From Phoronis australis (lineage: Eukaryota > Animalia > Phoronida): 64,000 nt of DNA. Every line of letters starts with the position of its first letter. The stretch's first letter is position 1. Under the pieces are notes generated by a model that made no database searches, had not been told where the DNA came from, and saw nothing but the letters and a program-made list of their open reading frames with translations. Positions 18,501 to 58,350 of the stretch are shown piece after piece. The stretch spans positions 343,183 to 407,182 of the forward strand of contig NMRA01000417.1 in assembly GCA_002633005.1 (NCBI GenBank). The letters run 5' to 3'. The translations under genes were made by a program, and so were the position numbers.

Positions 18501-18525
18501 ATCAAAAATTACGTACTCGGTGTTA
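15506..18525. repeat. ~1.33-kb direct duplication (15506-16835 and 17194-18525) across an N gap
   Basis: Both copies begin tggagaaatttactggtcag and end gtactcggtgtta, with scattered substitutions. Gap at 17134-17193. The ORF track shows duplicated short ORFs. Confidence 0.85.
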
Positions 18526-30300: not shown

Positions 30301-32310
30301 CGTGACTGTTTTTGGGTGCGTAAGCTATGCTGTAGAGTGCGGGTCGTGTTTGCAAGTCAGTTAGCTGTGTTTGCCGTGTTTTTGAGCGTTGTTCGGGTTG
30401 CCTAAATACAGGCTAAATTGCAGTTTTATTCATGAAAAGTGACTTGAGACTTACACAAGAAATTTAGTCTTACGTTCCCACTTCAAAATCACTGAATACA
30501 TTTTTAAAAAGATATTATGAGTAGTAAATCTCAACCTAAAAATAATTTAAGCAAAAGTAATGGGTATGCCAAAGACTTTGTACTTTTTTGCTAAACTGAG
30601 ATTAAATAAATATTTTTTTTAATATTGCTTCTGCGTTTTCCATGAATGAATTAAGTCGTTAGTCTCTTTTCATCAGTAGACCGCTGTCGTGTACAGTGAT
30701 AAATTACATTTGAATTATGCCGGAACTCTAGTACAACTCTCCGTTTCTTTTTTATATTAACTTTCCGCAACGTGGAGTTTAACTTGTCCTTTGCTTACTT
30801 GTACATTACATTGGATCGTGACAATTGTGATAGTGAACCAAGCAAAGTCTCGATTTTACTGCGGAGTCGGTTAATTTTTAATTTTAAATTTTAATTTCTC
30901 ACCGTTGCTTCTTTTGATAAATTAAAGGCTACCGAACTACACTACCAATACTTCAAATACTTCAATATGTACAACTCACCAATTTTGTCTGACGATGGGT
31001 GCTACAGTGTCTTCTTGAGCTTTCATTCTTTTAAAATCTCTTCAAGAGCTGCGTCAGACCGTTGGCATGTGGACCCACAGAAATCTACCCCTACCTTCTA
31101 GATGTCGCCACCGGCTGTCTTCCTGGTGAGATATTCAAACTTCACACGTTAAGGCAGAGTTGACTGACCCGTGATTTGTGAAGTGTTCACATGCCGTTCG
31201 ATCAGGATGAACATTTCGAGTCTGTTCTACCTTTTAAAAATCACAATTTGCTCCGAGGACGTAATGTTTAGCGCCTGATTTCCCTTTCTCATTAGACGCC
31301 ATACCTGCCTTCTTTTAAAACTTCCATATGTGAACGCGGTAAGTGACCTACAGCCCTTCATTCCACCGTAATCATTTCGCTATGAAAATATTCTGAGTTC
31401 AATTTTGAATTTTTTTTTGTATCAAAGAGGTACTTTCCTACACCGTGAGCTATTTACCGTGATCCATTTGTCTAGGCTCAGGTACGAACGCCGATGTGTG
31501 GATCAAGTTAAGGGGAGAGCTAGGAACCTCGAGGTGGTACAGTCTTCGCTTGCTGCACGCCTCCCAGCCACCGGCACCGGCACTGCACTTTGGACAAAGG
31601 GCAATTTTCCTGATGTACACCCAGAGTAAGCGTTGTGTAGTCTGGTGTTCTGGGGGAAGGGAGGGATGTTACCGTATGCACATTGTGAACTCGCCAAGAC
31701 TTCGGAGAGCTAAGAGCTCGACTGGTTTCCTCAAGTAAAAATTAGGTGACTTCACAATTGAATGAACTAAAGGCTACTTAACCTGCGGTCTAATATCCAA
31801 GACTTAATGTGAGCTGTCACTAGCTCAGCTAATTTTCAATTGAAGGAGCAAGCTGTGCTCGTAGCTTTACGTCTGGGCTGACAATATGGCATAGTTGATA
31901 GAAAAGGGGTATATTAGGAATGATTGTGCGACTCATGATTATTCTGACCTTTGCCAGGCTGAAACGCTGTGCAATAGTTCCCCATGTTTTACATTATTAT
32001 TGACTTTCAATGGGCCGGTCTCAGACCCCAAAACGTGATAATGACCGAGTCACCTTTTGGAGTCTGAAACCAAACATATTGAGTGTGAACCTTAGTATCA
32101 AATAGTGACTGAGATTATGAATGTGATTGCATCAGTCTGTTTTTGTTCGAGATTTTGTGGGAATGCATGCTATCAACATATACGCCAATGCTCAATAGTA
32201 GAAAACGAAATGTGTAGATGCCACGGAAACAGTTTGAGGTCACGACCGCAGCCGACACAGAGGCTGACGTCGGGCAATGGACCGAAACAATCGACGAATC
32301 AGAACGAAAT

Positions 32311-37404: not shown

Positions 37405-37468
37405 ATTGGCTTGGTGAACTCGAACATTTGGCTGTGTTCAACAGGGGATCACAAAGTAGTGAAAAATG
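37405..37468 (+). CDS. PKD1-family (polycystin-1-like) gene, PLAT-domain exon
   Basis: ttgcAG acceptor at 37404. WLGELEHLAVFNRGSQSSEKW matches PLAT LGxLxxIxxxHDNSG..xW. Phase-2 donor TG|GTAGGA. Confidence 0.75.
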
Positions 37469-37798
37469 GTAGGACTTCTTAGAAGATATAGACTATTCTT
37501 GTTCGTATTTATTTCCACGAGCCCCTAGTGGAGTTGTAGGTGGCGCATCTGTGTGTGTTAAAACTTCACTGAAATTGGGATTGCTTACATTTAACGATTG
37601 TTAAGTTATTTTCGTCTAACGAGGAAATAGATTATGTTAAAGAATATCATTAAACAATTCGCTCGAGCTAACATTTACCAAGTTTATTATTATGAGATTT
37701 TAGGAAACATGCTTGCTTTAGTGCCATAAAACAAGATATATTTCAGCATCAGTTGTAACTTCAAACGGCCAATTGATGATATTTGCAATTTATTTAAG

Positions 37799-37927
37799 GC
37801 AACTGAGCGACATCTCCGTGTATGACTTGACGAGACAGGTGAAGTGGTATTTTCCGTGTTTCCGATGGATATGCCCATCTTTGTGGTACCTTTTCCAACC
37901 GTCAAAGGGTGGCGCAGGATTCTGGAG
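37799..37927 (+). CDS. PKD1-family gene, PLAT C-terminal exon
   Basis: Acceptor tatttaAG at 37798 completes the TGG codon. (W)QLSDISVYDLTRQVKWYFPCFRWICPSLW...GFWR matches PLAT WxLxxVxVxD..T...WxFxCxxW. Phase-2 donor AG|GTATTA. Confidence 0.8.
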
Positions 37928-38055
37928 GTATTAATTGCTCATAAACAACTGGTATATTTTTCTGCAAGGAAGTGGAATGCACCCAATCGAGTTCAGAAAT
38001 TGCCATTTGGTACGTTTTTTAATAATTACCTTTTCAACCAGGCATTTTATTTCAG

Positions 38056-41000
38056 AATATTTGTGCGTACGTTTGCCACTGCCTCTGGTCGTTACAACAT
38101 TTGGTACACAGCTTTGACTGGACCCGCCGGCTCGCAGTCAGCCATGACGTGGCTGATGAATGTGACACTGTGCTGGTGTGTCTTGTGTAACATCCTGCTC
38201 GTCTCAATAGTCCCCTTCATAATTCCTTGGGCAGATATCGGTGGGCAGCAGCTGGTCGACTTCTTCGGCTTCAAGTCATTGCGTCACATCACGCTGACCA
38301 GTCACCTGGAGATCAACACGGAGCTGGTACTCCTTGGTTGTATCTTCAACATGAGTGTTTTTGCCCTGAACCTCATCTGGGAGATAATTATTCGCCATAC
38401 GCGCCGCCCAACTGGACAGGTTTACTATGACATGCAAGAGTTTCAAATGTGCTGTGACAAGTGGAAGAAAGAGAAGGCTGCTAAACTTGCTGCAACGAAG
38501 GATCAAAGCTTGTCTTTAAAGCAACGAATGAAACAAATGGCCATCGCGTCAACGACATCATTGAAAAATCTTTCGAGCGGCATGAAACGTAAAAAGGATG
38601 CTATAGCTACATCTGCTATTGGTAAGGCTATGAAATCAGCTTCAAAGAAGCTTTCATCATTAAGTCCAAGCCCTAAACGAAAAGCGTACGAAGCTAAACA
38701 AGTGTTGTCAGCCTCAGTTTCAAAGGTCAAATCAACGCTTGGTAAAAGTCAGCCTACCGAAAGTTTCCAAAAACAAACCAGAGCTGTTGACCCTAGCCAG
38801 GCATTTCCAGCGAAGATGGCAGGCACCGCAAAAAATGCTGTGGATAGCGTGAGGGGTATGTTCTATTGTGGTAAACCCCAAAGCATCGTCCAGCAAACCA
38901 CAAAAACAGCCCAAGCAGTACGCCGGGTATTTCAGAAACTCAAAGATTGCCTTATTCCCAAAAGGTCTGGTGGGGCAAAGCAAACACAACATCTTGCGGC
39001 AATGGAATCAGTGAAGGTTGCCCCGAAAGCTGTTCCTGACGTGATGGAGCGGAAGCTTGATCAATGGTACGAGTCAAAATTTGCGACACCTGGACTTAGA
39101 TCAGAAACTCTTATTGAGGTCAAAGATAAGGAACCAGCATCAGATGGCTTAAAGTCAAAAGCCTTGCATCACGACCCAAGGCAGCCTTTAATCCCGTTTG
39201 TGTTTCCATCCAAAACTGAAAAAAAGAAAACAAAAGGATCACGACTTAAGTTGTCGGTCAGTCTTATGAAGCTGGTCTTGCGTGACGACCAGTTAAAGCG
39301 TCTGTTTTCCGAAATCGGGGAAGAGACGGATCGCTTTGAGAAAAAATCAGACAAACACTACGAATGGGAATTTTATAGAAAACGGAGTGGCAAAAAGTCG
39401 AAAAAGGGTTTGCATCCACTTCAGATGGCGAGCAGCATGCAAGCATTAGTTGAACATGACAGGAAAATGAAGGGGGCGTTGGACAAAATATCGCATTATG
39501 CTGAACAGAGAGAGGAGAAGCTGTCTAAACAGGATGCCTCGTTTTGGCACTTAAGACGAAGAAGTGCTACAAAGCACAATATTGAGGAAGATAAAAAGCT
39601 CATGGTATCTTTTTTAAAGAGTATCAGTAAACGAGAAGATAATGAAATGGTGCCAATTACTGGAGTAAGTGCAGGTGAAACTGTCGCTTCTAAAAAAGAC
39701 ATCTCTCTCCCTGAAACAAAAAATGCGATATCTGAAAAGACGTTGGCAAAGACCGAATCAAAGAAAAGCGTGAAATCGTCTCCCGAAAAAAATATACCAA
39801 AATCCCTAACTAAAATTGCGTCAGGTGAAAGGGTTTCAAAAAACAAAGATAAGTCCGGTAGTGATGAGTCTAAAAAAAGTAAAAAGGGCAAAGCAAACAA
39901 AAAAGACAAGAACAAAAATGAAGAAGATAAAAGTAACGATAAGAAAAAAGTAAAAAAATTAAGTAGTGTTAAGAAAGCAAAAAAGGATAATGAGAAAATT
40001 ACAGATAAAACTTCAAGCAGTGGTATTTCGAAAAAAAACATAGGCAAAAGTAAAAGCAAAGAAAATGAAATAGATAAAGCATCAGTCGGTGGTAAGAAAG
40101 ACAAAAAGGTGAAAGATAAAAAGGGTAAAAAAGATAAAAGCGTCGTTGCCAAGAAGGGCAGTGCAAAAGGCAAGAAAGACAACAAAAAGGATAAGAAGAA
40201 AGACAAGAATAAATCAGCAAATGCATCAAATAAAAACTTTAATAATCCGCCAAGTGAATTGGAAGCAAACCTTTCAGCTGCCATGCAGGACAATAACTAT
40301 GGAATATTTCCAACCAAACATACTCATTACAGCAAAAACATTCCGAATGTGCCCTCTACTGAACATGCCTTAGAGAACTCTGAACTTGGATCTCCGCATA
40401 AACCTAATTTAGATAACACTCATTGTCACGAAAATGGTGGTTCACTTTTGTCACCGCACATAATATCCCATTCAAGAGCGAAACTCACCCATGTCAACGA
40501 CCTAGGGCTTGATCAAGAAGAACCTGGTATGAAAGAAGGCAATACTAAGCGTAATGATCCGGTGATCAAAAGAATAAGAAAGTCTAAAGCGAAAAGTGAC
40601 AACGATGACAGCGAAAAAAAGAAAACAGATGTAAGAAGCATACAAGAACATTCTAGTCATTCAAAGAAACTAAAACCAATTAATAGAATTAAAATACAAA
40701 AGAAAAAACGCTTGTCTAAATGGAATCAGGAATCGTCTGAGAATCAGAGAGAACTAACCAGACATAAAGACAAACAGGCTCGGGAAGTCGAAATGAATGC
40801 ATCTGAGCAACACTACGTAACTGATGACAAACTGTCATTAAATCAAGCCGCGAGGGTAGATGACCTCACAAAACGTAGAAATTCCCAAATTCTTACGGAT
40901 AATTTTGAAATACAAATGAAGCTCCTTGAGAACGTCCACGAATCAAAGGATGAAGTGAAACGCCACCACCATAGCCATAAACCAAAAAAGCACAAATCAA

Positions 41001-44000
41001 GGAGGAAACCTGGGTCCAAGAACATCGTATCGCCCAACAAAAATTATAATAGCTCGCGCCACCCGTCAAAAGATGCAGGGTCTACGGGCGGTTCAACGTT
41101 TGGAGATGGCAACGACGCTGAAATTTCAAAAGACAAAACATTCGATTTCACATACTTTGACATAAAGGCCTACTTTGAAGCGATAGGTGTGGAAGCCAGA
41201 GCCATAAGGCTTCCTCGTTATGTAAACGCCCTCACAGTTGATGATTTAAGTATAAAAAACGCTGTAAACAAAGAATTTATTGATAATCTTATGTCAATTG
41301 ATCACGATGTACAAAGAAGTGTACAGAAAGCAATAGAAGAATATAACGGCAAGAAGAAGACAACCTTATCCACTTGTACAGGTTTAGTTGTTGAAAAAAT
41401 GAAGTCTGGTCGGAAATCAGGGCTCAAGGAACAAACAAGGAAGATTGCTGAGGACAAAAGTTTGAAAAAGTCTTCAAGTGATAAAATCAAGCAAACATGC
41501 TCGTGTTGCCCGTTTGTGAAGAGAAATGATGGTGCTAAAGAAGACCATGCAAGCAAGGTCCATGATCGTAAGATAGATTATAAGGAAACGAAGTTAGAAA
41601 ATATAAACAAGGAAACAGGAGACGCTAAAGAGTGGGATAGCAAAGAGTTACCACAGCATAAAAAGACAACATTGTCGGAAATAGATGACACGCACAAGAA
41701 AACAAGGGCTTCAAAGCAACAGATGAATCATGAATCTTACACGCGCATTGGTCAGGTAAAAAACTTGGAGAGTAAGGACGAGCCAACAAATCAATGTTAC
41801 ATTAACACTGCTGGGAATGCAAATGCAGCTGAAAAGGTCAGCGTAAATGCAAACAACGATCCAGATGATTCTCACAAAGAAAGCAGCTCTTCCTCAGAGA
41901 AGAGTCTTACGGATTATGATGATGCGGTTCCTAAAAAGAAGAAACAAAAAACCATCAAGAAAAAAATAGGAAGTATGATTGACTCGCTTAAACGGAGGTT
42001 ATCAAAAGGCAGTCGGAGAAAGTCGTCTTTCGATCAGACACCCATACAAGTAGAGAGAGGCTTAGATAAAGCGAAGATTCCTAGCAAGCACCCACGGAAA
42101 GGAAGCAAAGATAAACATAAAGACAATATAGGTCGTTCTCTTAAAGACCCAAGAAACAAGAAGATATCTCTCATTGTGCAGCCAAGTGAATCATTTCGTG
42201 GCTACGTCACAGACGAAGTCAAACTTCGATTTCAAGAATTTTCAGTGGAACTCTCTCGAAGATTACTGGTTCTTCAGGATGACCAGCTGCAAGGTCGACG
42301 ATATCTTCGACAAGGAATAGGCGAACCGTTGCCACAAAGGACGTCAGGCAGGAAATCGGGCCAGAGCAGCAAAGACACAACATATCTAGCCAATCTTCAC
42401 AAAGCTACCGATGTTTCAAAGGTTACACTGCAATCGTGCGAAACTCAAGAAAATACCTTTGCGACGATACTGCCAACTGGAATAGACTCGCGGAAGGAGA
42501 CCAAACAAAAACGCAGTGAACAACAAACAGAAGCTTTAACAATTGAAATAAGGCGACAAGTAGATCAATCGAAAAAAAAATTGCTGGACCCCTTACTACT
42601 CCCGGACTATCTACCTCGGACACCACGGTCGTCTAAGATGGAACCCAACCTAGATACGTGTCTTCAAAATGAAACCAGTGACGGTAATGAAAAGAATCTT
42701 AAACGGCATCTCCTTGAGAATAACGCAGACAATGAAAATTTTGGAGAAAAAAGAAATGGTGAAATAAAAATGAAAACTGAAGATATGACCAATCAGTCAC
42801 TAGAGCAAAATGTAAATGCCGACACAGTGGGGGGTGTTGAATTGTCTAAGAATGAAAACGCAAGGGACTTTTCTGGGTACAATTTAGAAGAACCAACGCT
42901 AATGGAAAAGGTAAGCGATATAATGCAGATTAGCCTCGATTCTCTCTCTAAAATGATGCTCCAACAAAACGCAAACTCAACAGGAACATCTAAAAAACAA
43001 GATCGGAATGAATCACACGAAGACCTGTTGGAAAATGCCCGTGCAATTATCGCCTTGTCTGTGTGCAAAATTGCAGAGGAGTTGTCAAAAATGAACGATT
43101 CTGGTGAGTTGAAAGAGATGATAAAGGATTCGTGCATAAAGGTCCGCGTTTCACAAAACGCTCTTCTTGTCGAAGACGTTGCAAAGGCTAAAGCTTCTGG
43201 CAATCTAAGTCGACATGACTACAGTTCTGTTCAGTTCGAACAAGTGAAAGACATGGTTTCGAAAACAGTATCAGGCGTTGCACTAGCCATGAATGTTCGA
43301 AAAGAATCAGTCCCTGTGAAATATCCAATAAGTCAAGAGGTGTGTGATGTTTTGGATCTTACAACTCAAGATCTTGTTTCTCTAATGCTTTTGACAATTT
43401 CTAACACGATCGCTAACGAAGCAGGCACTAAGGGACTCTATGGCACCATCACATACGACGATACTCGAGAACCTATGTCGAGATATATGAGAGCCGCAGT
43501 AGGGCTTGCAAAGTATTCTCTACAGAAAATAGAAGATTCCATGCCTCAAAACATTATCCCTGATAAAAATAAACAGCAAGTGTATATACCTTTTGACGAA
43601 AAGAATGAAGTGTATAAAGTTCTCAAAAGCCTTACAAGCAACGTCGCACAGAATTTCTGCTCCAAACCAAAAAACCAAATTATGTCGAAAAGCGACACAA
43701 AATTATCAAAAGAAGTAACTCAAGAAATTGACCTAGCAGCAAAAGACATGGTGACTGTGATGCTTCTACAAACATCAGGGGTCCTGTCAAGGATGGAACG
43801 TTCTGGAGAGCTACAAGTGGCAGTTGCGCAAAGTATGAAGAGTGCTGATAAGCTGAATAAGTTATCAGACCCATCTCATTTAGGAAAGGTTCTTGGAGTA
43901 GCTCAATCGTCTCTCGGAAAAATCGATGGCGATCTCACGTCCGGAATGACCATTCGCGTCTCAAAAGAGTTGGCAGATGAGCACAGTGTTGAACAATTGA

Positions 44001-47000
44001 GACGGAAGCTCGCTAAGCATATCGTAGACTCTGTAATGACCCAAGCAACCAGCAGTTTGTCGATGACTATACAAGTACCATCAAGCAGTGGCCCTAAAGT
44101 GACAATACATGACCTAATGCGACTTGGTAGAAAGGATCCTCGTTTCGCAATGAGAGTGCTCGTGCAGAAGATCGAGGCTAATCTTAAGAAAACATACGGA
44201 GTTCTTCGAGACTTTGGGGCTAAAGGCGTTATGTATAAAGCCTCCAAGCGAATAGGTACGTTGAAAGACGACTCGTACAAAAGAGCGAAGATGATAGTGG
44301 AAACGACGGTGCATAAAATCTGCAAAACCGTTGACGAAAGTGAAATTCTTAGAGGGGTGAATGAACATGTAAGAAAAGTATTGGACGAATTGAAATGTCT
44401 AATGTGCATTGACTTGATTTCACCTGACTCCGATATGACTGTACAAGCAAAAAAGTCAAAACAAAGGGAACGAGAATGGAAAAAGAAATCGCGTCAGCTC
44501 CAGGAAAGTTTATCTATCAAACAGGAAGTTGCCCAAATTAAAGAATCGTTGATGTACATCGATACAGAGCTAGACAATGCTAGGAAAATTGCAAACGACA
44601 TTGCGTTTGCCCAAATCGAAACAAATAGATCTACCATGAGAAATTTGGATGAAGTGAAAAAGAACCTTGAGAACATTGCATATAATTTACATACTCATGG
44701 CAGTAAAACTGATGTGAAAAGCATTAATGACGTCATTGAACATGCTAAAAAGGTGACTGAGGAAATAACGTCTGTGCATTGTCAAATGACTAAGGCCACA
44801 AGAAGTCATTTAGTTATTGTTCGTCAAAACTTAGACAATTTGGCAAAGAAAATCGTTAATAGAAACAACAACATGGCGGAATTTGACGAAAATCAACTTC
44901 AAAAGCAAAGCTGCCTTTGGTCCCTGCAATCATCGTCGCTAAGCCTGGCGAGAATCGTATGGGACGAAGGCCCTTTCAAAGTCGAGCATGTGTCTGGCCA
45001 GTGCCACACAGCAACTCAGTTAACTGACGAGTTAGATGAAAAGCCTTTGTCGTCCCTCGCGTCAACCGTTGACGTTGCAAATATTTGTCTTCGACGAATC
45101 ACAAAGGAACTTAGCGCTATGGAGTTAGAGCTTCATCCTGTTGCCAACAACGTGTCTTTGCGTGTAGCATTAAAACTATCAAATTCGGCCATGTTAGACA
45201 TAGAGCACGCACTTGCATCTTTCCGTGCTGAAACTGTCAAAGGCTCTAAAAGGCGCGTTTTTCTAAAGCTACCTCTGCAAATTTCGACATTTATCAAATG
45301 CCTGGAAAATGTTTGGTGGCAATTTAAACAACTTTCAAGGCTTATTGGAGGACAAACATTAACACGGAAAGGAAGCGGGGAGACGGTTGTGCACGACGCC
45401 ATGGCTAACATTCTGACCTCTTTGTTACAAGTACGAAGTCAACTACAAAACATCCAGTGTGTGCACTCGACAACTGAAGGTCTTTCACTGAAGGAAACGT
45501 TGTCTAGTACAAGGGACGTGATATCAAATGTAATGAATACTATGAAAAGCCAATGTTCATTAACACAGGACATTCGCGAGTCATTGCAGATTGCAAGTGA
45601 CTTGGCACTTGCGTCGCTCGACAATATAGAGCTAGGTTTATTTCAATGTGTCACTGCCACAAATACAGCACCAACACTTGGATCATTAGAGAATCCTGTT
45701 CTTATAAAGATAGTTGTCTCTTTTATGCTATCTGTCCTTGAAACGCTTATAGAAAACGAAGTCGACCTGGAAAAGGCTACAATTAGCAGTGTCGATGCCA
45801 TGGGCATGCTCAGGACTGTGTTGATTGAATTGGATCGTGAAATAAGCTTAAAATGTAAACCAAGGGATATGAGCCACCTGAGCGTCGCAGAAAGTAATCA
45901 AACAAAACGTGCCATTAACGAGGCTATTACATGCGTGCTTAATGTAGAGCACGTTGTGAGAAATGCCTCCTCGTCAAAAAAATTTCGTATGGATGGTCGA
46001 ACTCTGTTACCTCTTGCCTCAATGTTGAGAAAAACCCAATCTTATAGCCTGTTTGGAAATTCAGAAACATTTGTTAATATAGGTGGTAGATGCTGGTCTT
46101 CTGAAGATCTCGATATCCCGGATGATCCTTATATGGAGTACTTCACGTGTTGGAAGGACTCTGTAGAATTAACAAAAAGTGTAATGACTTCATTGCAAAA
46201 CAACGACAATAATGATGTCCATTTTGTTACCTATAATACTCCTGGTATTCTAACAAGGAGTTATCATGATCTAAGGCGAGAATATTTGAAACTGATGCAA
46301 CTTTCGCTGTGTGCAATGGAAGACGAGTTCGACGATTTGGTTATTGTTGATGATATGAGCACAAGGAACAACCTTTCAAACGAAAATGCACAAACAAATA
46401 ATGATGATTCAACCAAGTTGGTTAGGAAAGCCTCCTTGCTTGTGAAAGGAATCAAGTGTTTGGTAGATGGCGAATTGGTGTTCTCTTCAAATGATCGCCG
46501 TCAAGCAGACGATAACGATTTTCTGTTCGATATGCCAACGGAACTTAACAAAAACAATGCTAACGCATGTGCCAATTCTGTACTTCTCCCAGTGTTTGTC
46601 CAGTTTGCAAAGGAAATCGTCACACACTCGCTGAGTACGCCACGGACGATCCAAATGAGAAGCATTAACCAAAAACAAAGCTCATTTGCTTTAGTTGAGA
46701 CAGTCAAGAAAACTATTTTGGACAGTATTGAGCCATTGCACTCACACAAACTTGTGTCAAGAGTGGCCTCGTATTTACAGGAACAGTGTGATGCAGCAAA
46801 ACGTGACGAACAAGTTGATATGGAAACTATGAAAGACGCACTAACAAAGGTAATGAAGGCACTCGAAACATTTAAAGACGGAAACGCCACAGCCTTCAAG
46901 ACTCCAGAAGCTGTTCTCGGTCATAGAGAAAAAAATACAACTGATCACGACGTTCACCTGAATTGTGCCATATTTCTTGTTACAAAGTCTTTAGAGGAAA

Positions 47001-50000
47001 TATGCGAAGAACTTGACATGAAAGGGAAACAAATAAAAGAACACATCATTCCCTCTTCTACAACTTTGGATACCTCGTCGGTATGTTTGACGCAATCCAC
47101 TCAAGCTACCGTTATTAACGGCCAGGTTGAACTGGAAAACAATCAACCTATGGTCCGTTCGGCGAAAGAAAGTGCGAAAAGCCTGATTTCATGTGCGTTG
47201 ACTGAAATCGAAAAAAAAGGTCTGAAAGGGTCTGATTTAGGCGTCAGAGCTGCAAATCCTGATGTTTGTCTAAAATTGTATGGAAATTGTTCTGCTTGCA
47301 CTGTTGCTGCACAGTGTTTGGTTAGGTCGAATTTATTAGATGTTGCCATCAGCAACTTTGCTGGAGACAAAAATGCTCCAGGCCACTGTGAAAGCTGCCG
47401 TTCCGTTGAATTGACAATGAAGACGCCTTCTCAACAAGGTCACGCCAGCGTAGGTTCTCAAAGTCAACCATTTGTAGCTTCACTAGGTACGTCGACCTCT
47501 CTCATACCCCGTCAGTCGAAAGGAACGCAAGTGCGAACTCTTCGCGGTTTACACAGTAGCTTGACGTCAAGTGTCTCTGTGGGTACTCAAGTCCATGCAA
47601 GACGCAAATCAGTGTACAAATCCCGCTCGGAGGAGTGGAGAATTTCCATGGATGAAATAGCCAAAACGGCTAGTACTTTACTACAAAACATTGTTAGCAA
47701 CGCCGAAAACAAAAAGCGGTTAGAAAAATCCTCCATGAAATCTCGCAACGTAGTTTGCAGATGTCTTCTCAAAATAGATGATGTCTTGAAGGACGCTCTT
47801 GGCAAGGATTTTGGTGTCTTAGATGCCTTGAAATACAAAAAGTCTGGTGAAATTGCCAGTTCTCTGGTGAAAGCTATTTGTGCAGACATAGAACAGGGCT
47901 TGGAAGCAGTCGCCGACGATAAAGACTCGTTAGGCTTGCAACATAAATTGGGTCAGAATAAATTGCACAATTCATTTAAGGCCGATTTTTGCGCAGATCT
48001 ATATTCGACTGTATTCAAAGGGCATGATTTCTTTGAAAACAATCTAGGTTCGTCAAACCAAACTGTCGAGGAAGCATTAGAGACTATTGCGATATTACCC
48101 GAGAACAGTGAAAACATGTCAATAAAACAAAATGAATCGAATGCTGAGGGTGAAAGTTCTAACCTGCATGAGATGGTCAGTGACACAAGACTCGTCTCTG
48201 CAGATGATTCTGATGGAAAAGCAACTGCAAGTTTGTTTTATACTCCAGGTAGGGAGGTTGTACAGTTAGACACAAGCCGAACATATACTGTGCAAACTGC
48301 CTTGCAAGGTCACAAGACGTGGAATCCTGGCGAAAGTTGTGACATACTCGAGGGAGCGGAAGATCAAATGAGACGAAGGCAGTCACTGAGCGTTGGCGGG
48401 GTTGACTTCTTTCAAGCACGGGATGACAGTCTGCTGTCAGCGTCTTTCCCCAAGATGAGGTTTCTAATTTTGCCCTCGTCTCATTCTAGTCAAAAAATGA
48501 TATTACCACCCGTCGATATCTCTCAAAGTAACTCAAAGAACCGAGCAATAATGAAGCAGGACTCGTCTGTGAATGATGTCTTAACCAACGCAGTAGCAAT
48601 GACTAATTTACCTGAAGAAAAGGAATGTGGCAAAAACAGTCTTATGTTAAGAACTGTTATTTTAGACGGAGTCAAACTCCGGGATGACTCGTGCTATCAG
48701 CACAGTCTGACGCCATCTGAGCCATCGACACAACTTCCAGTAAGAAATTACACATCCACAGACCCTGTTATAACATCCACTATGACAGCAACAATTCGTC
48801 CTACCACATTAACAAGTCCAAATCAATCGCTGGATGATGAACGGCAACACTTTTTGGAAACCCTATGCAGCTCTTATATGCAACTAGACACGATTGCAAC
48901 TCATCCACAGTGCAGCTCTAGCGACTTCCAGATATTCGAAAACAGTAGAGGAGACGTTGAAACATCTTTAGATATTTTAGGTGGTGCAAAACAAAAACGT
49001 AAGCGTCGCACTTCAATGAAGTTACCTAACGAGAAAACGGATATTGTGGATGGTACACCGGGAACCAGAAACATTATTTCAATGGATCCGCTCAAAGTTG
49101 ACCACAGATTCGTCATCACCTCAGTTGATGAGTTAAAGAATATGAAAAATCAAGCCAAACAAGGAGATGATTGCGATCCCAGTCTTACAAGGGCTAGAAC
49201 TCTTGTGAAAAATAGTTTGCAGGAGCTTCAAGACTCCAATGATACAGACTGGACTGTAAAAAATGTCAATGATGTCCAAGAGCTAAGAAATATTCAGCTG
49301 TGTTCTAAAAGTGCTGACATCAAAGATGTGGCGTCTGAAATTGTCAGAAAATCTTTCAGTCGTGCAAAGCTACAGTCTCGCTCATCTGGACGTATCGATG
49401 GTAAATCAGTGTCTGTGAAAAGATTGCGAACAACTGTGCACCCAAAGATAGATGCAATTCGGCGTCGTATGTTCAAAGATTCCGAACTGTCGTGTCAGAA
49501 GAGTGACCCTGGTCCTCTTCTTCCAATAGACGTAGTGAAACGAAAGTCGGTTTCTAATGACGTGATGACAGACTTTAAACTGGTGAACAGAAAAATTATA
49601 GTTACTGCCAGCTCAAGTGTTGACACTCTAGGCATGGACTTGGAACCAGTGGAAGATGATACAATGCCAGCGAATGTACAAAAAAGTGACGTCATTGAAT
49701 CATCGTGTAGCGAGAACACAAAACTAGAGGAAAAAATAAAATGTGACAAAGACATTCTAAAAACGTTATCGGGAAATTTAAGAACCGATGAAAAAGTTCT
49801 TCCACTAAAAACTAGTACATGCTTTTCTGCCAATGGCGCTACAATATCTTGTGAAGCAGAAACAACCAACACAAAAAGACAAAGCAGCCTAGGTATACGA
49901 CTAAGAATGTCATCTGAGTCTCCAGAAAGTCTACGGAATGCTTCGTGGATGTTAGTGGCGCAAGTAGAGTGTGAAGTGCAAGCGTTATTGAATAGAATGT

Positions 50001-53000
50001 TTAGGCCCATGTCTCTGCCCGCTATGAACAGACGTCCTGTTTTTGACGAACACTCTCTTCGAGTACTTCAAACTAAAAATACAAGCAACCATCCAATCGA
50101 GAACAGGATTACTCAGCAAGAACAAACGTTTAGCAATGCCAATCAAAATGACAGGCTCAGAGACATTGCAACTAGTACAACTCAGCTGATTGTCCCAGCA
50201 GACCCAGCGCAAGTGTCTGAGAAAAATGCTCAAGGGAGACGGTATGCAGTCGTTGAGTCAAAAAGTGCAACCTCGCTGCTGACGAATAAGGGAGAAAGCA
50301 AAGCAAACAACTTCAAAGCAGTCTCAGTCTTGCGCAACATCAAGCGATCTACTTGTGGTGTGCTCAGTGAAATACTAAGTTGTCAAGAAAAACATAACGT
50401 TGTCGTCATGGCACCAAGCACAGCTATCGGTAGTGATGGTTCTTCAATAAAGGACTTCGTAAAGCACGGAACAACGGTCAATTCTAGCCAGAACAGTGGA
50501 CATTCGTCCATCATCTCTGCCGCTTGCAGGACGTGTGAAGACACTGAATCCATGAGCCCGCTCTCCCTTCCGAGTCCCGAGTCTAATAAGCTACTGCTTC
50601 GCACTCGCCGACCCTTTACAAGGAGATTGTCGACACACGGCTTAACTGAGCATGTTCGGCCAAGTGTAGACGAGACGTTACCTCTGCTACCGGTGTCACA
50701 TGAAGGAGAGCTTGATACAACGGCCGTTCTTCACGAACGCTTATTGGATAAATTTGATGATGACACGTATGACATTAAAGGTCCGCTTACTCAAGTAAGC
50801 GAAAGAGCACTATCTTCTTCAAAATTCACATCCACTGAAACTATAACATCGGTGAGCTCTTTACTCTCAAAAATGGTTCATCATGATAGCACACCATGTA
50901 CATTAGGTTCAAGTGACTTGCAACGGTGGTCAACTTTTTCCGTGGCAACAGAGAATGAAAGGACAGCATATGATGTCGTGGACACCAAGTTGACTAAGAA
51001 AACTGCCCTGTCAGTTATAATGGACTATGTGTCGGAGTCTGAAAGCGAAGACCTAGGAAATACGAAAGGTGACATGCAATCACATAGGAGTAATGAGGGT
51101 ATCAGCATAGATGTGCAACCAGCAGATGAAAAGCCACCAAGTGATCAAAATTCATGTACAAATTTTCAGGAGCTGAAGCATTCTAGAAGCATTAAGCCGG
51201 TCAATCCTGATTTATTATTGCTTTGTTACGTCAACCCCGGAACAAAGCAATCAACTGATCCGCTTTCAGACTTCTACAAACCCCGTAACAGATGTCTGGA
51301 TACCTTGAGAATTGGACAAACTGGACATGAAGTATCCGAAGTTTCGCCAAACAAGGAAATAGTTGAGGATGCAAAATCATCGTCGGTTACGGTTAGGGAT
51401 GCGAGTACAGTCCCCAACGAGAAAGAAGTAGTTATCTCCATGCCAGGCGAAGAATCACCAATTTCTGCTAAGTCCGATATTTTTTATGGTGTGTCTGGAA
51501 GTAAGTCTTCTCATGCCAGCTCACCATTTAAAATCCGCCGTAATCCCGTGGACGGAACATACGACAATCGCATAAGGCACAAAAGTGGCCAGATGAGTGC
51601 TATTGATGAAGAAATTTGCCAGGCAACAACACCCAATAATGTTGTCACTAATCGACACGAGCTGATGGCAGAGCCTCAAGGCACTTCACTAAGCCGAACA
51701 AGTACGTGCGAAGATATTATTCAAATGGAACATCCAATCAGTGTAGATGACGCGATACGCAATGTGTGTGACCATCTGATGGATGGCGAAAGTATGGCTA
51801 GTTTATTTTTGAAGAAAGGTGACCATGAAGAAAGTTCTGCTGACCACAACAATTTTGCTGACCTTAAAGACTTTCAGTCACAGAATGGTGCATGGGAGAG
51901 GCATCATGACGTACACATTGAATCTACTGCTGAACGGTCAAGTGGAATGCCAGTTTGTAGACTCCAGTCCATGAATAAGGAAGTGGATAGTCCCAAAGAT
52001 TGTGCACTTACGATTGACATTGATGCTACATCGCGTGCAACGGAAAGGTTAGGTACCATTGTTGGGAATGAACAGAAGACAAATGTTGCCCAAGAAGTCT
52101 CGCATGAATCAAACAGTCCAACTGCTCACGTTATGATTCCTGTCCAATTTCCAAATAACATCTTACTCAATACGCCTGAACTTTGCCGTACAAGCCAGCC
52201 ACTCAACAAAGCACAGCTTCCTTCAAGAACCATAAAAAGATGTATTGCAGAAAATGAACATTTCAGTTCAGGAATGCATTGGGATAAAACTATTGGTGGA
52301 AAGCTGGAACGATTTATGTATCAAATACAGGAACTGGAGTCTACCTGTTGTGCACTTGGTGTTTCGCACGGGACCTCTTCCGTGACCAAACTGTTTACTG
52401 CCATCTCGAGCTTCAATCGCATGCCTTGCGGAGGAAGAAATGCCTTCAAGAAGCTATTCGAAGCCCTTGAGCCGCTAGAAAGTCCGCAGTCGCTGAAGAA
52501 TGTGTCCGTTGTTCTCTCAATGTTTACATCTACCATGAACGAACTCTGTGATTTGTCAACTGGTAACTTTGACTCCTCGAACTTATCCCAGAAGGTCGAA
52601 ATGTTTTGCTCTTTGATGGCGCAGCTGTCTTTGCATATTCAGAATCAGCAACCGAAGTTACCAGATAGTGGCGCTATCCATCCACCAGTTTTGTCAACGA
52701 GAGAGTCTTCGAATTCACACTTCAGTCGTATAAACCTTAGCATCAACAAGCGTATGCACTCTGTGAATAATTCACCAAACCACGGGCACGAAGAAAATTC
52801 GAAGGAATGTGTGAACAGTCGGACCATTTCTCTTGTAACGAAACAAGACGCGAAAAACGGGAATAGCATGGCCTCCAGTGATGAAACCCATAAGAAAGGT
52901 CATGGACAACGAGTAGAAGATTTACCCCCGAGGGATCCTATGCGTGCAGGAAAGAGTTTAAAGTTTCCAAGAGCACCAGCGGCAAGTGGTATAGAAGACT

Positions 53001-53909
53001 CAACTCCTGGATCGTCAACATCAGTCGTGTCAGTTGGTGATCAGCCTGCCGACTCCTGGTGGTTCATGACGAGTTCTACTGCTGGAACTTTGCAGCTTAT
53101 GAAAAACCAATTGAGCGGGGTGGAGAAGGATCGTCGACTCGTCAGCTTTAAAACTAGAGACGCAGCACATTGGAAAATCTCCAATGCTTCTGTGCCAAAG
53201 ATATTTAGACAAGATGACTATCAGCCAAGACGACAAACAGACCAGCCAAAAACACCCATAAGCTATCACGGATCACAAGAGAGCACGGCGACCGTCTGCA
53301 AGTTGTCACCACCATATAAACTAGACAGCAGTGATGCTTCAAGGGTAGAGGCTATCGACGAATACAGGTGTAAGAAAAGGTCAAATGAGAATGCCTATGG
53401 GTTGTCGAGCATAAGCCGGATAATTGCATCATCTGCGAGTAGACGGAAACTGTCGGAACAGTTCAAACCAAAAGAGCAGAAGCTCAACGTTTCGACCGGT
53501 ACTGTGGAACCAGAGGCAGCGGCTTCACCCATGTGTGCAGTTCCGTTGCAGCACATCCCAGTTCAAGATGGCTCTGTGTTGGCTGACTCAGGTTCTTCCA
53601 CACTTGTCTCGAGTTCTTCAACATCGTTCTACGCCACCACTGATCTTGATGAAGACACATCACGGACATCTTTAGTACAAATCGCTCTGTCTAAAGAGTC
53701 GGCAGGTACAACGGAGAAAGCCCAGAAACTCTTACCTGTAGATTGTGACGCCGTTGCTTCGGATCACGAGTCGTCCAATTCTCTTTTTCATGGAGCAAGT
53801 CCAGGTTCAAACACGTCTACTGTGTCGTCAGGGGCAACCACGCTTATCGATGGTTATCAGGCTATTTCTGCGTCTGCTGGAGCTACTCATCGGGAAGGAG
53901 ATTTGCAAG
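38056..53909 (+). CDS. PKD1-family gene, giant 15,854-nt exon (TM2, TM3 and most of the TM3-TM4 insertion)
   Basis: Lies in the 5373-codon ORF 37844-53965. Acceptor ttttatttcAG at 38055 is phase-compatible with the previous exon. YNIWYTALTGPAGSQSAMTWLMNVTLCWCVLCNILLVSIVPF aligns to polycystin-1 HIWxS..RP..S.FTRxQR..C..LL (TM2); LVLLGCIFNMSVFALNLIWEIIIRHTR fits TM3. Phase-1 donor CAAG|GTAAGT at 53909/10. Confidence 0.88.
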
Positions 53910-53994
53910 GTAAGTCGGTCTGCTCAGGTAGTCAGCTGAGCATCGTGTGGCTTCAACACTTATAATCTTTGCGATTAAAAAGGGTCCCTGTTGC

Positions 53995-54070
53995 ATTCTC
54001 TCTATCTCTCTCTCCCTATCCCTTCCAACGTCCCACTCCCTCCCCCTCTCCCCCCCTCTCTCTCCTTCTG
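53995..54070. repeat. CT/C-rich microsatellite inside intron 53910-54410
   Basis: Directly visible; supports this interval being intronic. Confidence 0.85.
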
Positions 54071-54410
54071 CTGTTGGAAACAGAAAAGAGTAGAGCATGA
54101 GCAGAATTATGATCAGCTTAACACACGAGGGGATCGTTATTTCACTTGTGGGGTCGTGTTTAAGACATCGCTATCAAATACCACTCTGTGTCGTTTTTCA
54201 AAGACAAGGAACGATTTGGGATCATTTTACCGGGTCCAGGCTTTGTGCTCAGGCGCACTCGATACGACATCTTTTGACTAGACATCTTGAATATTCACCA
54301 ACATTGCGATTATGTCATTTTGTTGTCGTGAACCAACGCACACAAAACGTTTTTCATGAGATATCATATTAAGTGCAATGACCTTAATATGTTCATTTTA
54401 AATGCTGTAG

Positions 54411-56119
54411 ATGGGCTGGGTACTTTTGCACCGCGATCCGGAAGCCTTGATGCCGCGTTGACGCAGTCATCCCCGAGTACAATGCTAATGGAGCTGGCGG
54501 TCAGAAACCCCACTTTACAGAGTAAACTGGAACAGTTCCTCAACAGATACGACCAAAATCTGCCCGATCCTTTTTTCGAATGCCTCACGGAATACATCAA
54601 AGAGCTGTTGTCCGAGGCACGTACAGAACGCCTTCAAAGTATGGAGAAAAGTCTTCTTAGTCAAGCCTTATCCAGCCCTTTCATACAATCGGTAATAACA
54701 AACAATGTTATTGCCGAGCAATGGAATGTTGTAATAGAAGAACGAATACAAAGCGAGGGCCCATCAGAGGTGGTTGTTGACCACGCGCCAACATCCAAGC
54801 CTTCGTCGCCACCGCCGATTTATGACAGAAACAACAACGCTCGAGTATCGGACTATCAAAAAAATAACTCGGCCAATACCATGGTGTCGGACAGTCTTGA
54901 AAGTCAAGAGTTGATTTCAAATTCCATCCGCTACTGGCAGCACAAGATTCAGCGTGGAGCACGCAGCGCTATGGATGCAACAGTACGGGCCATACGCTTT
55001 ATGTCAGGAGATGCTGTCGCTGACGATCGCAGCACATCCACGCCGAAAGCCAATGAGACTTTCCCTTCTAATATGAGAATAGTCCGTGGCCAGATGTCTT
55101 ATCCTGGTAACGTAACTACTGGACGCATGACTCATGACACAGCTAGCTGTAAATCATCTTCCTCTGAGATACTGACAATGCCTCGCCACTGTGAGCCCCA
55201 TAACAAACCTTCGCACTCAACCCAACCAAAACTGTCAACCTTGTTTTACCCGGACGCAACACGAGCCATTCAGCTGTCAAGCAAGCAACCCACAGATGAA
55301 AATCAAAATGCTAGTCCCAGTCTCATCCCAAAATGCGTGAGTCCAGGCCTGTTTACCATTCCTAATCAAACTCCGTATGTCAACGAAAACGCGGTTTATC
55401 GTGATTACGACGGAACCTACTCAGTTATCCCAAGAGCCAATGACCAATTTCTGGAGGAGTGTGCCGAGATAACGTTCGCCCGTATACTCGATCACTATGG
55501 TTTTTTCGCCACCAAGGAGCAGTGCGATCGTTGCATGGGAGATATTTATATCTTTCTAAAGCGTGCCCAAGATGAGATTTCGAAGTATTCGGAGCAGTAC
55601 GAGAAACTGCAGAAAAAAGCTCAGGAATGCATCAGATACAAACTCAGTGACATCGACGTCGATGTCAAAACCGTGGAAGATACTATCCGCGTGCTCGCGT
55701 GTGTCCAAACTGACCTCGACGACATCAAGGACATGCTGCTAGATTGGAACAGCGCCACACACTTACCCTCGCATCTCACAATCATAAACGATCAGCACAC
55801 GTGGTTTCCCAAGTTTCCGGATGCCGATAAAGCTGAGCAAGAAGAATATCTGACATATATCGAGAACCTTTACTACGAAACCAGGCAAAAGACATGGCTA
55901 CCTGCGTGGGTGTCCTACTTCATGTTTCTAATCCTATTCTCATCCGGATCAGTCTCCCTTATTCTTTTGGCTCTATTCGGCATGGGCATGGCGCCTTCTA
56001 TGTCCTATCAGTGGGTAGTGTCTGCTACAGTCTGCCTGACTGAACACGTACTTTACTTTGAACTTTCTAAAGTGTTTATGATAGCAATATATGCTGGCTT
56101 TAAGAGGACGTATTTGTAG
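54411..56119 (+). CDS. PKD1-family gene, terminal exon (end of insertion, TM4-TM5, stop)
   Basis: Acceptor gctgtAG at 54410 gives G+AT=Asp in frame with ORF 54356-56119. Ends WLPAWVSYFMFLILFSSGSVSLILLALFGMGMAPSMSYQWVVSATVCLTEHVLYFELSKVFMIAIYAGFKRTYL*, matching polycystin-1 LPxW...TM4...G....xWxxS...S....EPxKV...A. AATAAA at 56476. Confidence 0.85.
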
Positions 56120-56624
56120 CTAGATTTGTTTTGATACTATTTACATCAGTGCAATGTGCAAAAACAGGAAACTAAAGGATACTAAAACTTTATCTATTTA
56201 TTTATTTAATTTTGTAGAAAAGAACTTTGTTTCCAAGTAAAATTTTATCATTTCCAACTTGCAGTTTTATTATGACAAGAAAATAACGTCCATATAGTGT
56301 GGTTGGTAGTAAAGAAAAGTGAAGTTGGGTGGAACAGGTTGGGCAAAGACGACAGTCAGGTTAAAACTCCACGTCTGTTGACTTGCACGTGCGCTACACA
56401 CGCTTCACTCAGCACACGTTCTTGTTCTTGTTGATTAAAGATTTCGATGCCATTTTAATAAGATAATTAGTTACTAATAAACTTGCCATTGTTACTGTAG
56501 TCACCACGAAGATTTGATCTCTGTGGGCGACCGTCGTTCGTAGGTAGAAAATGCTTATCCATATTCAAAATTAAAATTACGTTGTTGTTTGTATGACATA
56601 TTCTGAGCATGGAGCTAAGAGCTT

Positions 56625-56990
56625 CTGGTGGCGGTTAGCCATTAGTGATAGCAAGAAGGCTAGGGTCCAAGGCACACTATCGCCGATACAGTATATCTGA
56701 TAGTTTTGATGGTATACGCCAGTGCTCCAGGTGACGAATAATCATTGGTGAGAGAAAGAGACCCAGGATACGAAGCAAACTATCGCCGATATATCTGGTA
56801 GTCAGCGCTCCTGGTGACGGTTAGCCATTGGTGAGAGTGGGAGGCCAAGTGTCCAAGTCAAAGCCAATATATCTGATACGTAGTTTTGATAGTATAGTCT
56901 GTGGCGGTTGGACTGTTGGGGATATTGGGAGGGCTAAGGTCCAAGGCAAACTATCGTCAATATATCTGATATTTTTCAATTTTTACGCCA
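56625..56990. repeat. Degenerate tandem repeat, about 4 units of ~90-100 bp
   Basis: Recurring ggttagccatt / gtccaaggca..ctatcg / tatatctgata blocks. Confidence 0.65.
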
Positions 56991-58187
56991 ATACTAGCAC
57001 AGATGATAGATAACAAATTGTGCGTAAAATAGGAGGATAGTAAATTAGATAACTATGAAATATTGTCTTCTGACTGTATTCGTTTGATGTAACTTTCTTC
57101 CATATTTTTTGTTTAAATTATGAATCATTTCGTATAAATATAGAATGCGTGTATTTAATACGGTGTATTAATGTATCTGAGCAATAATTAAAGCAACATG
57201 TTTAGTCAGTGATCCCGCTTGAACGTGCAACTCTTCTCACCTACACAATTTTCTGCTAGATATTGATTTGTAGTGTTATGGAATTCTTCGTATTTTCGTT
57301 CCTCCATTACGCCCCTACATAATCACGAAGAGACATTTTTTAGCTGAACCCGTTAACCCAAGTCATATCTGTTGAAGTTTATTTTTTTAAAGCGGAGGCT
57401 TAGTGTCAAAAGATGTATGAGTGATATTATTAATAGCGGATTTGCAGCGCAAACGAACTACGCATTGCGCATGTGCGAGTTACTTACTGCGCGAATGCTC
57501 ATGGGATAGCTTGTGGTCAGACATGTCTTGAGCAGGCTGGATAGTGTGTGCATTTGGAGTGATTTGCAAACTAAAAACCATGTTTCATTTTTTTGCTTTA
57601 TAATACCAAGCAAGTCCTCTCTCTCGTTAGTAAACACAGCGTAGCTATGATCAGTGACCGTGTGACCGAGGGCACAACTGTCGTCATGATGTTCAGCATT
57701 GGGGCTATCGGCGTTGATTTCGAAATCTCCTCCGGTTTCAGACAAGTTGAGAGTTCTTGGGTTGCTTAACTTTTGTTAATTTTAAGAGGAAACTCCGTCG
57801 GAATGTTGTTCTCATACGTCTTTTTTGCACCAGGAAAATGTTCGCTGCACACACGATGGCCCCTAGGCAAATGCCGCAGGCATTCAGGGGCGATAGTACA
57901 TCCTCACAAAAAGTTACTCATTTCAAAATACAGCAAATAAAACCAAATAAACCATACATGTAGGAACACGGAGTAATTAACACATACCACGACTCTGGAT
58001 ACAATTTAGTCAGCAAAACTTGAACAAATCGATGAAAATCTGTCGCGGTTTGCTCGAGCTTTTCTCAGTTACCGGGTGCCATTTTGAGGAAGTTAGTGAA
58101 ATTACGCATGTTGACGAATAAAAAGTCTAAGGGACACACATCTTACAAGTTTCACCCGATACCCTCTCATGCTATTTTACAAGTGTC

Positions 58188-58350
58188 GCGCGCTAGCGTC
58201 ACGCGCTAGCGTCACGCGCTAGCGTCACGCGCTAGCGTCACGCGCTAGCGTCACGCGCTAGCGTCACGCGCTAGCGTCACGCGCTAGCGTCACGCGCTAG
58301 CGTCACGCGCTAGCGTCACGCGCTAGCGTCACGCGCTAGCGTCACGCGCT
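58188..58350. repeat. Perfect 13-bp tandem array (CGCGCTAGCGTCA)n, ~12 units
   Basis: Directly visible; the units are identical and have no spacers. Confidence 0.95.

What the first reader, a model, noticed from the sequence alone, without database searches (positions are those of the whole stretch)
55895..56500. Polycystin that stops after TM5: no TOP domain or TRP-like channel
Seen: TAG at 56117-56119 comes about 15 residues after the EPxKV-equivalent motif (ELSKV), followed by AT-rich sequence and AATAAA (56476). No channel-like exons are visible before the window end. Known: PKD1-family proteins have 11 TMs, and the last six plus TOP assemble with PKD2. Inference: this protein cannot form a PKD1/PKD2 channel and uses the N-terminal TM bundle only as an anchor, unless the channel half is encoded by a separate gene.
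Basis: partly seen in the sequence, partly recalled or inferred. Interest (0 to 1): 0.7.

Follow-up and report, generated by a model that had tools for sequence, protein, structure and literature searches.

The report
Channel-less polycystin with giant inner loop
This expressed gene encodes a likely polycystin-1-type membrane protein whose main message ends just after its last anchoring helix, so it lacks the ion-channel half, as a known sea-squirt sperm receptor also does; its unusual feature is a loop of about 5,700 residues, predicted to lie inside the cell and likely acting as a scaffold.

Summary
TAG 56117-56119 lies 14 codons after ELSKV. Stranded RNA reads from two runs cover the last exon through the stop. 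Their ends pile up at 56177-56182, and no joint leaving the exon was listed. A minor spliced form under about a quarter of reads is not excluded.

RNA joints link six exons into one 5,994-residue open frame: a PLAT-like domain, two helices, a ~5,670-residue loop (mostly one 15,854-base exon), two more helices, then the stop. TM1 and any ectodomain were not found. No database search returned a relative, so the polycystin identity rests on a weak Pfam PLAT hit and recalled motif order.

Channel loss after TM5 is not new: Ciona s-Themis-A is a 5-pass PKD1-like protein without the channel (PMC9265791, PMC8849226). The giant loop, and expression in two of three runs of one study, are the unusual parts. 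The scan earlier noted a channel-less five-helix anchor in another genome (e1-7397801), with no sequence look-alike. Verdict: real; new variant of a known kind; interest 0.4.

The parts
31047..31125 (+). Most upstream exon seen; first PLAT-like strand. Its 5' edge is uncertain (AG candidates give starts 31047, 31049 or 31058). It has no in-frame ATG, so coding exons further upstream are inferred
   Evidence: RNA joint 31125 to 31476 in 22 (X1) and 19 (X2) reads, short side up to 64-66 letters; in-frame TAA just upstream
31476..31625 (+). PLAT-like exon
   Evidence: Pfam PLAT E=0.049, 14.8 bits (cut-off 23), profile 13-54 of 117; joint to 37405 in 48 and 33 reads
37405..37468 (+). PLAT-like exon
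   Evidence: joint to 37799 in 41 and 26 reads; recalled pattern match
37799..37927 (+). End of the PLAT-like domain
   Evidence: joint to 38056 in 27 and 27 reads; recalled pattern match
38056..53909 (+). Giant coding exon, 15,854 bases: TM2- and TM3-like helices and most of the loop
   Evidence: 0 stops in frame against 144-438 in the other five frames; continuous + strand RNA depth and no internal joint listed
38168..38224 (+). TM2-like helix (model residues 179-197)
   Evidence: hydropathy 2.59, highest window of the model
38324..38392 (+). TM3-like helix (residues 231-253), followed by basic residues
   Evidence: hydropathy 2.06
38393..55894 (+). Loop of about 5,670 residues between the TM3- and TM4-like helices, predicted cytoplasmic; lysine-rich start, more hydrophobic middle, Ser/Thr-rich end; spans the last intron
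   Evidence: no Pfam family at its cut-off; no internal repeats listed
53910..54410 (+). Last intron, GT..AG, 501 bases
   Evidence: 65 and 38 joint reads
54411..56177 (+). Last exon to the main RNA end
   Evidence: depth about 90-100 over 54775-56108, then ends at 56177 and 56182
55919..55981 (+). TM4-like helix, preceded by LPAW
   Evidence: hydropathy 2.34; recalled pattern
56012..56101 (+). TM5-like helix holding ELSKV (56060-56074); only moderately hydrophobic
   Evidence: hydropathy 1.29; helix 202-236 in a low-confidence model
56102..56119 (+). Five-residue basic tail KRTYL and TAG stop
56177..56182 (+). Main RNA 3' ends; no canonical hexamer in the 40 bases upstream; not an A-rich priming site
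56476..56504 (+). AATAAA and a possible minor 3' end at about 56503
   Evidence: hexamer; 6 of 6 and 10 of 10 reads show A for C at 56504, which may be poly(A) or an allele

Best explanation
The gene is expressed and its main mRNA ends 60 bases after a stop that follows the last membrane helix, so the protein has no TOP domain or channel; it is likely a polycystin-1-derived protein that keeps only the TM1-TM5 half and likely works as a channel-less membrane receptor or scaffold through a very long loop predicted to be cytoplasmic. Shown: exon chain, single open frame, stop, RNA ends, four hydrophobic helices, sample-restricted expression. Inferred: polycystin ancestry (motif order), an upstream TM1 with an ectodomain, the topology (PLAT, loop and tail inside), and the function. 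By analogy with s-Themis-A it would act beside a separate channel-bearing polycystin rather than form a pore. The loop would tether cytoskeletal or signalling proteins to that membrane site. A sperm or other ciliated-cell role is a guess from family precedent.
For: RNA: five joints give one 5,994-residue frame with the only stop at its end. Ends pile up at 56177-56182 in X1 and X2, and a contig of a second study ends at 56177. No joint from the last exon to any place up to 58099 was listed. No TOP or channel hit in 105 of 105 downstream frames and no hydrophobic exon candidate there. Ancestry: Pfam PLAT E=0.049 for one exon. Five recalled PLAT patterns fall in order at residues 16-121, one of them formed only across an RNA-shown junction; four recalled TM4-TM5 patterns fall in order at 5922-5984; 0 of 2000 shuffles give either order. 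The break falls at the published boundary between the TM1-TM5 and TM6-TM11 halves (PMC8357825). Precedent: s-Themis-A, 5-pass, no channel, still functional. Expression: mean depth 71.9 (X1) and 62.4 (X2) over 27 bins, 0 in X3, which does cover nearby repeats.
Against: No relative was found by any database search: 0 hits among 1.84 billion representatives, 0 in three word searches, 0 for either helix pair in the PDB. The Atlas's named hits for TM2-TM3 were anoctamin and TMC fragments at 0.83 or less, not polycystins. The patterns are recalled and were written after seeing the sequence, so the shuffle counts overstate the evidence; the strict EPxK pattern does not match. TM1, GPS and REJ were not found. 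The loose-end table left out 81 rows, so a splice to DNA beyond 58099 in fewer than 27 (X1) or 19 (X2) reads would be unseen, against depth 96 and 85 at 55957. The gene's real donors can be weak (-0.6 at 37928), so the low scores of 56072 and 56110 do not exclude them. Of 31 coding differences listed, 20 change the residue and 11 do not (8.6 expected silent, P=0.22): no sign of strong constraint on the loop. An extra A at 44448 in 13 of 77 and 5 of 81 reads would shift the frame. No protein-level or functional evidence.
Confidence: 0.65

Rival explanations
1. Split gene: an ancestral 11-helix gene broke after TM5, and the TOP and S1-S6 half is now a separate gene whose product still pairs with this protein and with PKD2.
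For: The TM6-TM11 half alone gives a working channel with PKD2L1 (PMC8357825), and PC1 is cleaved in the TM5-S1 loop (PMC9672506), so the halves can be separate chains. The DNA after the gene is rich in transposon pieces.
Against: No channel-like frame within 7.9 kb downstream on either strand. RNA depth falls to about 2 at 56776-57442. No genome was available to look further.
Confidence: 0.12
2. Alternative 3' ends: the short form seen here coexists with a longer spliced form that leaves the exon at 56072 or 56110 and reaches channel exons beyond the laid stretch or the window.
For: GT exists at both places, and true donors of this gene can score poorly. The loose-end table is cut short and only 18-19 in 100 of each run was read. 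Depth falls from 96 and 85 at 55957 to 38 and 30 at 56177.
Against: Both donors score below all five real donors (-2.6 and -3.8 against -0.6 to 8.1). No such joint or loose end was among the rows listed. A fall of depth towards a 3' end is expected (general knowledge). Two studies end at 56177.
Confidence: 0.1
3. Decaying paralogue: a recently truncated PKD1-like copy that is still transcribed but is losing function, like the channel-less pkd1l3 remnants of teleosts.
For: Near-neutral ratio of silent to residue-changing differences; a frameshifting extra A in a minority of reads; published channel-less remnants regarded as not bona fide (PMC5318412).
Against: A 5,379-codon frame without a stop (chance about 1e-151); 0 new stops among 31 differences; precise splicing; restricted, substantial expression; both listed differences inside helices are silent (2 of 2).
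Confidence: 0.08
4. Not a polycystin: an unrelated PLAT-like membrane protein whose helix motifs resemble PKD1 by chance.
For: No database or fold match to any polycystin; the Pfam PLAT score is below its cut-off. A similar claim in another genome was not upheld (e1-7397801, not checked here).
Against: A PLAT-like domain followed directly by two helices, a loop and two helices with the recalled patterns in order; the searches used short, divergent pieces and single-sequence models of pLDDT 47-52.
Confidence: 0.05

Closest known systems
Ciona s-Themis-A (sperm self-recognition receptor; PMC9265791, PMC8849226, PMC7018956)
   Same: PKD1-like, LH2/PLAT domain, 5-pass, no C-terminal PKD channel domain; works beside channel-bearing paralogues.
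   Different: s-Themis-A has a hypervariable region, REJ and GPS, and a fibrinogen-like v-Themis gene in its first intron; none was seen in this window. The passages read mention no giant loop. No sequence link was tested.
Canonical 11-helix PKD1 family (PKD1, PKD1L1-3, PKDREJ; PMC8357825, PMC7728438)
   Same: PLAT followed by the helices of the TM1-TM5 half, by recalled motif order; the stop sits at the boundary between the two halves.
   Different: No TOP domain, no S1-S6, no long C-terminal tail; loop between TM3 and TM4 of about 5,670 residues against a few hundred (recalled).
Sea-urchin SpREJ proteins (PMC1934368)
   Same: Invertebrate PKD1-family members with fewer than 11 helices (0, 1, 2 or 6 predicted), tissue-specific expression.
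   Different: None of the ten is described with five helices; the longest has 3,716 residues, shorter than this loop alone.
Channel-less vertebrate copies: teleost and gar pkd1l3 remnants, stickleback Pkd1b, human PKD1L2 as annotated (PMC5318412)
   Same: GPS or PLAT part kept, channel domain missing.
   Different: Treated there as no longer bona fide or incomplete; this gene has a long intact frame and RNA-defined ends.

Membership tests
PKD1 family (canonical 11-helix) | PLAT/LH2 domain before TM2 | tested here: met
   Pfam PLAT E=0.049 for one of four exon pieces, below cut-off; five recalled patterns in order in the spliced model, one only across an RNA junction. Weak by database, patterns post hoc.
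PKD1 family (canonical 11-helix) | TM2-TM3, loop, TM4-TM5 after PLAT | tested here: met
   Hydropathy 2.59, 2.06, 2.34, 1.29; ordered recalled patterns. One further window of 2.05 lies in the loop at residue 2688 and is not explained.
PKD1 family (canonical 11-helix) | REJ, GPS and TM1 upstream of PLAT | tested here: inconclusive
   None in 122 of 122 upstream + frames or by pattern and exon scans; the upstream exon is unidentified and may lie in a gap or before the window.
PKD1 family (canonical 11-helix) | TOP domain and S1-S6 channel half | tested here: not met
   Stop and RNA ends after the TM5-like helix; 0 of 105 downstream frames hit these families. Minor isoform not excluded.
PKD1 family (canonical 11-helix) | Sequence or fold similarity to a known member | tested here: inconclusive
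   No hit; queries were short and the models poor.
s-Themis-A type (5-pass, channel-less) | PLAT and 5-pass membrane part without channel | tested here: met
   Channel absent and four helices seen; the fifth (TM1) is inferred, not seen.
s-Themis-A type (5-pass, channel-less) | Hypervariable region, REJ and GPS | tested here: inconclusive
   N-terminal exons not found.
s-Themis-A type (5-pass, channel-less) | Fibrinogen-like partner gene on the opposite strand in the first intron | tested here: inconclusive
   0 of 128 minus-strand frames in 1-37800 hit a fibrinogen family; the first intron is not located.
s-Themis-A type (5-pass, channel-less) | Testis expression and role in self-sterility | not testable with these tools
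   Expressed in X1 and X2, not X3; the samples are coded.
AKAP-like scaffold (loop) | PKA-anchoring amphipathic helices | tested here: inconclusive
   Broad recalled pattern 6 against 3.55 in shuffles for residues 1601-3600, reached by 60 of 500 shuffles; no Pfam hit for the two best candidates.

The most novel reading that the evidence does not exclude
A polycystin turned inside out: it dropped the channel half and grew its TM3-TM4 loop to about 5,700 residues through one 16-kb exon, so that its main working part is a giant cytoplasmic scaffold tied to the membrane of one cell type, such as sperm. In the boldest form it signals or anchors with a channel half supplied by a separate gene.
Probability: 0.25. 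Interest if true: 0.7.

Novelty: new variant of a known kind. Interest (0 to 1): 0.4.

Why it matters
The TM1-TM5 half of polycystin-1 is dispensable for channel current in the PKD1L3/PKD2L1 complex (PMC8357825), which leaves open what it is for. Natural proteins that keep only this half test that question. s-Themis-A is the one with functional data in the papers read; this gene would be a second, RNA-supported case if the ancestry holds. It adds a loop longer than any whole SpREJ protein, which points to the TM3-TM4 loop as a site where the family builds cytoplasmic functions. The truncation alone would not surprise a specialist. The loop might.

Tried and rejected
No whole genome is held, so the split-gene test and the search for upstream exons beyond the window could not be run. 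No RNA holder was listed by the index; the four runs came by species label. Homologue searches gave nothing: representatives, C-terminal 238 residues; word searches with residues 30-260 of the giant frame, the TM4-TM5 piece and the PLAT exon (327, 261 and 51 candidates, 0 passing); PDB sequences (none; 47, 64, 65: chance hits at E 0.46 or worse). Atlas: TM4-TM5 scored 0.92 to unnamed clusters with low recognition; TM2-TM3 scored 0.83 or less to anoctamin and TMC fragments; both are leads at most. Single-sequence models had pLDDT 46.6 and 51.5; fold searches gave no match with E below 0.001 and best Z 5.0, so they were not used. The one metagenome locus (L001, 1 of 141 stretches) is a bacterial gene matched in an off frame by a short word, and was rejected. 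My first guesses of an exon at 31296-31338 and of an acceptor at 37918 were not supported by the listed RNA joints. Joining the Ly6-like gene at 7546-13479 to this gene was rejected because it has its own stop. The AKAP-like idea was not supported. PKA-type sites were 37 against 27 expected (P=0.04, post hoc), a lead only. Paper searches for a giant TM3-TM4 loop or giant exon in a polycystin and for other channel-less members listed no description of such a loop; the library lacks most subscription papers, and no supplement was opened. The look-up of earlier scan notes found nothing near this place or by sequence.

Full report
Observation. The frame beyond the stop closes again after four codons. 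The stop ends a 595-codon frame (54332-56119) that follows a 5,379-codon frame (37826-53965). The chance of the long frame from base composition is about 1e-151.

RNA at the 3' end. Four runs were laid on 38100-58099; 18-19 in 100 of each raw run was read. X1 and X2 are stranded and cover the gene on the + strand throughout, with mean depth 71.9 and 62.4 over 27 bins. One joint was listed inside the gene: the intron 53910-54410, in 65 and 38 reads. Molecule ends pile up at 56177 (18 at depth 38 in X1; 13 at depth 30 in X2) and 56182 (7 at depth 16 in X2). A contig of X4, from a second study, also ends at 56177. These ends lie about 60 bases after the stop. They have no canonical hexamer upstream and are not followed by a long A run. 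Six and ten reads reach 56504 and all read A for C there; this may be a poly(A) start 22 bases after AATAAA, or an allele. No joint from the last exon to any place up to 58099 was listed. The limit: 81 loose-end rows were not shown, and the rows shown had at least 27 (X1) and 19 (X2) reads. A splice to DNA beyond 58099 below those counts, against depth 96 and 85 at 55957, would have been missed.

Downstream DNA. Of 105 reading frames after the stop (70 on + of 30 residues or more, 35 on - of 45 or more), none hit a TOP or channel family; three hit transposon families above cut-off. A splice-aware scan for hydrophobic exons found none downstream. Both tests are weak for this gene: only one of its four PLAT exon pieces hits Pfam, and three of its five real acceptors fall below the scan's threshold.

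The gene. A second lay on 30350-38500 showed joints 31125-31476 (22 and 19 reads), 31625-37405 (48, 33), 37468-37799 (41, 26) and 37927-38056 (27, 27). With the last intron, six exons give one open frame of 5,994 residues (the first exon's start was set at 31047 and is uncertain). It reads: PLAT-like domain (residues 16-121), helices at 179-197 and 231-253, a loop of about 5,670 residues, helices at 5929-5949 and about 5960-5989, and the tail KRTYL. The first exon seen has no in-frame ATG and an in-frame stop just upstream, so more coding exons should lie further 5'. No joint to them was listed within 30350-38500. No GPS, REJ or TM1 candidate was found in 1-31046 (0 of 122 frames; scans). They may lie in the gaps at 17134-17193 or 29875-30110, before the window, or be too divergent to see.

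Is it a polycystin? No search returned a relative. The case rests on a Pfam PLAT hit below cut-off (E=0.049) and on recalled short patterns. Five PLAT patterns and four TM4-TM5 patterns fall in order; 0 of 2000 shuffles reproduce either order. One PLAT pattern has no match in the six-frame genomic translation and appears only after the RNA-shown splice. The patterns come from memory and were written with the sequence in view, so this is support and not proof. The strict EPxK pattern is not met. I put polycystin ancestry at about 0.9. Because the channel half is missing, the protein is not filed as a canonical PKD1 member.

Expression and variation. X3, from the same study, has zero depth over the gene but covers the neighbouring repeats, so expression is restricted to some samples; which ones is not known. 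Of the 40 difference rows shown (152 not shown), 31 lie in the coding frame: 11 silent, 20 residue-changing, 0 stops, against 8.6 silent expected (P=0.22). The loop keeps its frame but shows no sign of strong constraint on its residues. An extra A in a run of six at 44448 appears in 13 of 77 and 5 of 81 reads; slippage or a null allele would both explain it.

How it likely works. In PKD1L3, TM1-TM5 form an N-terminal half and TM6-TM11 the TRP-like half with the TOP domain; the second half alone gives current with PKD2L1 (PMC8357825, passages; PMC7728438, passages). This protein stops at that boundary, so it should supply no pore subunit (inference). By family topology PLAT, the loop and the tail face the cytoplasm; basic residues after the TM3- and TM5-like helices agree. 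PLAT binds membrane lipids and regulates trafficking in PC1 (PMC9672506, passages). The most likely role is a channel-less receptor or scaffold beside a channel-bearing paralogue, with the loop binding cytoplasmic partners. No partner motif was established: AKAP-like helices were not enriched, PKA-type sites only slightly, and the tail fits a recalled class I PDZ pattern with a chance of 0.036.

Comparison with what is known. Ciona s-Themis-A has REJ, GPS, LH2 and a 5-pass membrane part; only s-Themis-B and B2 are 11-pass with the channel (PMC9265791 and PMC8849226, passages). Targeting s-Themis-A allowed delayed self-fertilisation, and the authors suggest it supports the B-type channel indirectly (PMC7018956, 12 of 17 passages). 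The original 2008 paper was not seen. Sea-urchin SpREJ proteins have 0, 1, 2, 6 or 11 predicted helices (PMC1934368, parts 1-2 of 4). Channel-less copies also occur in fishes and in the annotated human PKD1L2 (PMC5318412, 12 of 55 passages). Planarian PKD1-like proteins keep the polycystin domain (PMC11448475, passages). So loss of the channel half is a known kind. No fibrinogen-like partner gene was seen (0 of 128 minus-strand frames). Searches for a giant loop or exon in a polycystin listed no such description; the library is incomplete and no supplement was opened.

Verdict. The finding is real and RNA-supported. The loop of about 5,670 residues makes it a new variant. Interest 0.4.

Noticed in passing
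window 38056-53909: One coding exon of 15,854 bases, unspliced in RNA, supplies most of a ~5,670-residue loop with no Pfam family at cut-off and no internal repeat listed. This is more unusual than the truncation itself.
   Followed up: partly
window 7546-13479 (+): Three predicted exons (7546-7603, 12362-12501, 13264-13479) give a 137-residue Ly6/uPAR-like protein with a signal-like start, Pfam UPAR_LY6 E=9.6e-5 and Toxin_TOLIP E=1.8e-4, and its own stop; a separate gene, not checked with RNA.
   Followed up: partly
window 32308-35496: A 3.2-kb element inside the long intron, with inverted ends, transcribed on both strands in all four runs and with mixed flanks, so multi-copy. It has a spliced + strand gene (32644 to 33296) and a spliced - strand gene (34202/35307). 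Looks like a two-gene DNA transposon (Harbinger-type by recall).
   Followed up: partly
window 57428-59000: Multi-copy transcribed element with a THAP domain on the - strand (58723-58932, E=6e-8) and a 13-base tandem array at 58189-58350; the same array recurs at 63301-63455 beside a single N.
   Followed up: no
window 60794-63771 (-): Broken non-LTR retroelement: RVT_1 at 62239-62580 and zf-RVT at 60794-61138; 62998-63295 is repeated at 63449-63746, possibly an assembly duplication.
   Followed up: no
window 14022-14916 and 15506-18525: Near-identical direct duplications (449 bases at 97.6%; 1,333 bases at 97.8%) that each flank an N or gap, likely uncollapsed haplotypes. The assembly upstream of the gene may be unreliable, which bears on the missing TM1 exon.
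   Followed up: no
window 45695-45751: A hydrophobic 19-residue window (2.05) in the middle of the loop, as strong as the TM3-like helix; a buried helix or an extra membrane contact.
   Followed up: no
window 44448: One extra A in a run of six in 13 of 77 (X1) and 5 of 81 (X2) reads; it would shift the frame of the giant exon.
   Followed up: no
window 19248-20247 and 59457-60442: Two copies of a ~1-kb dispersed repeat, 78% alike.
   Followed up: no
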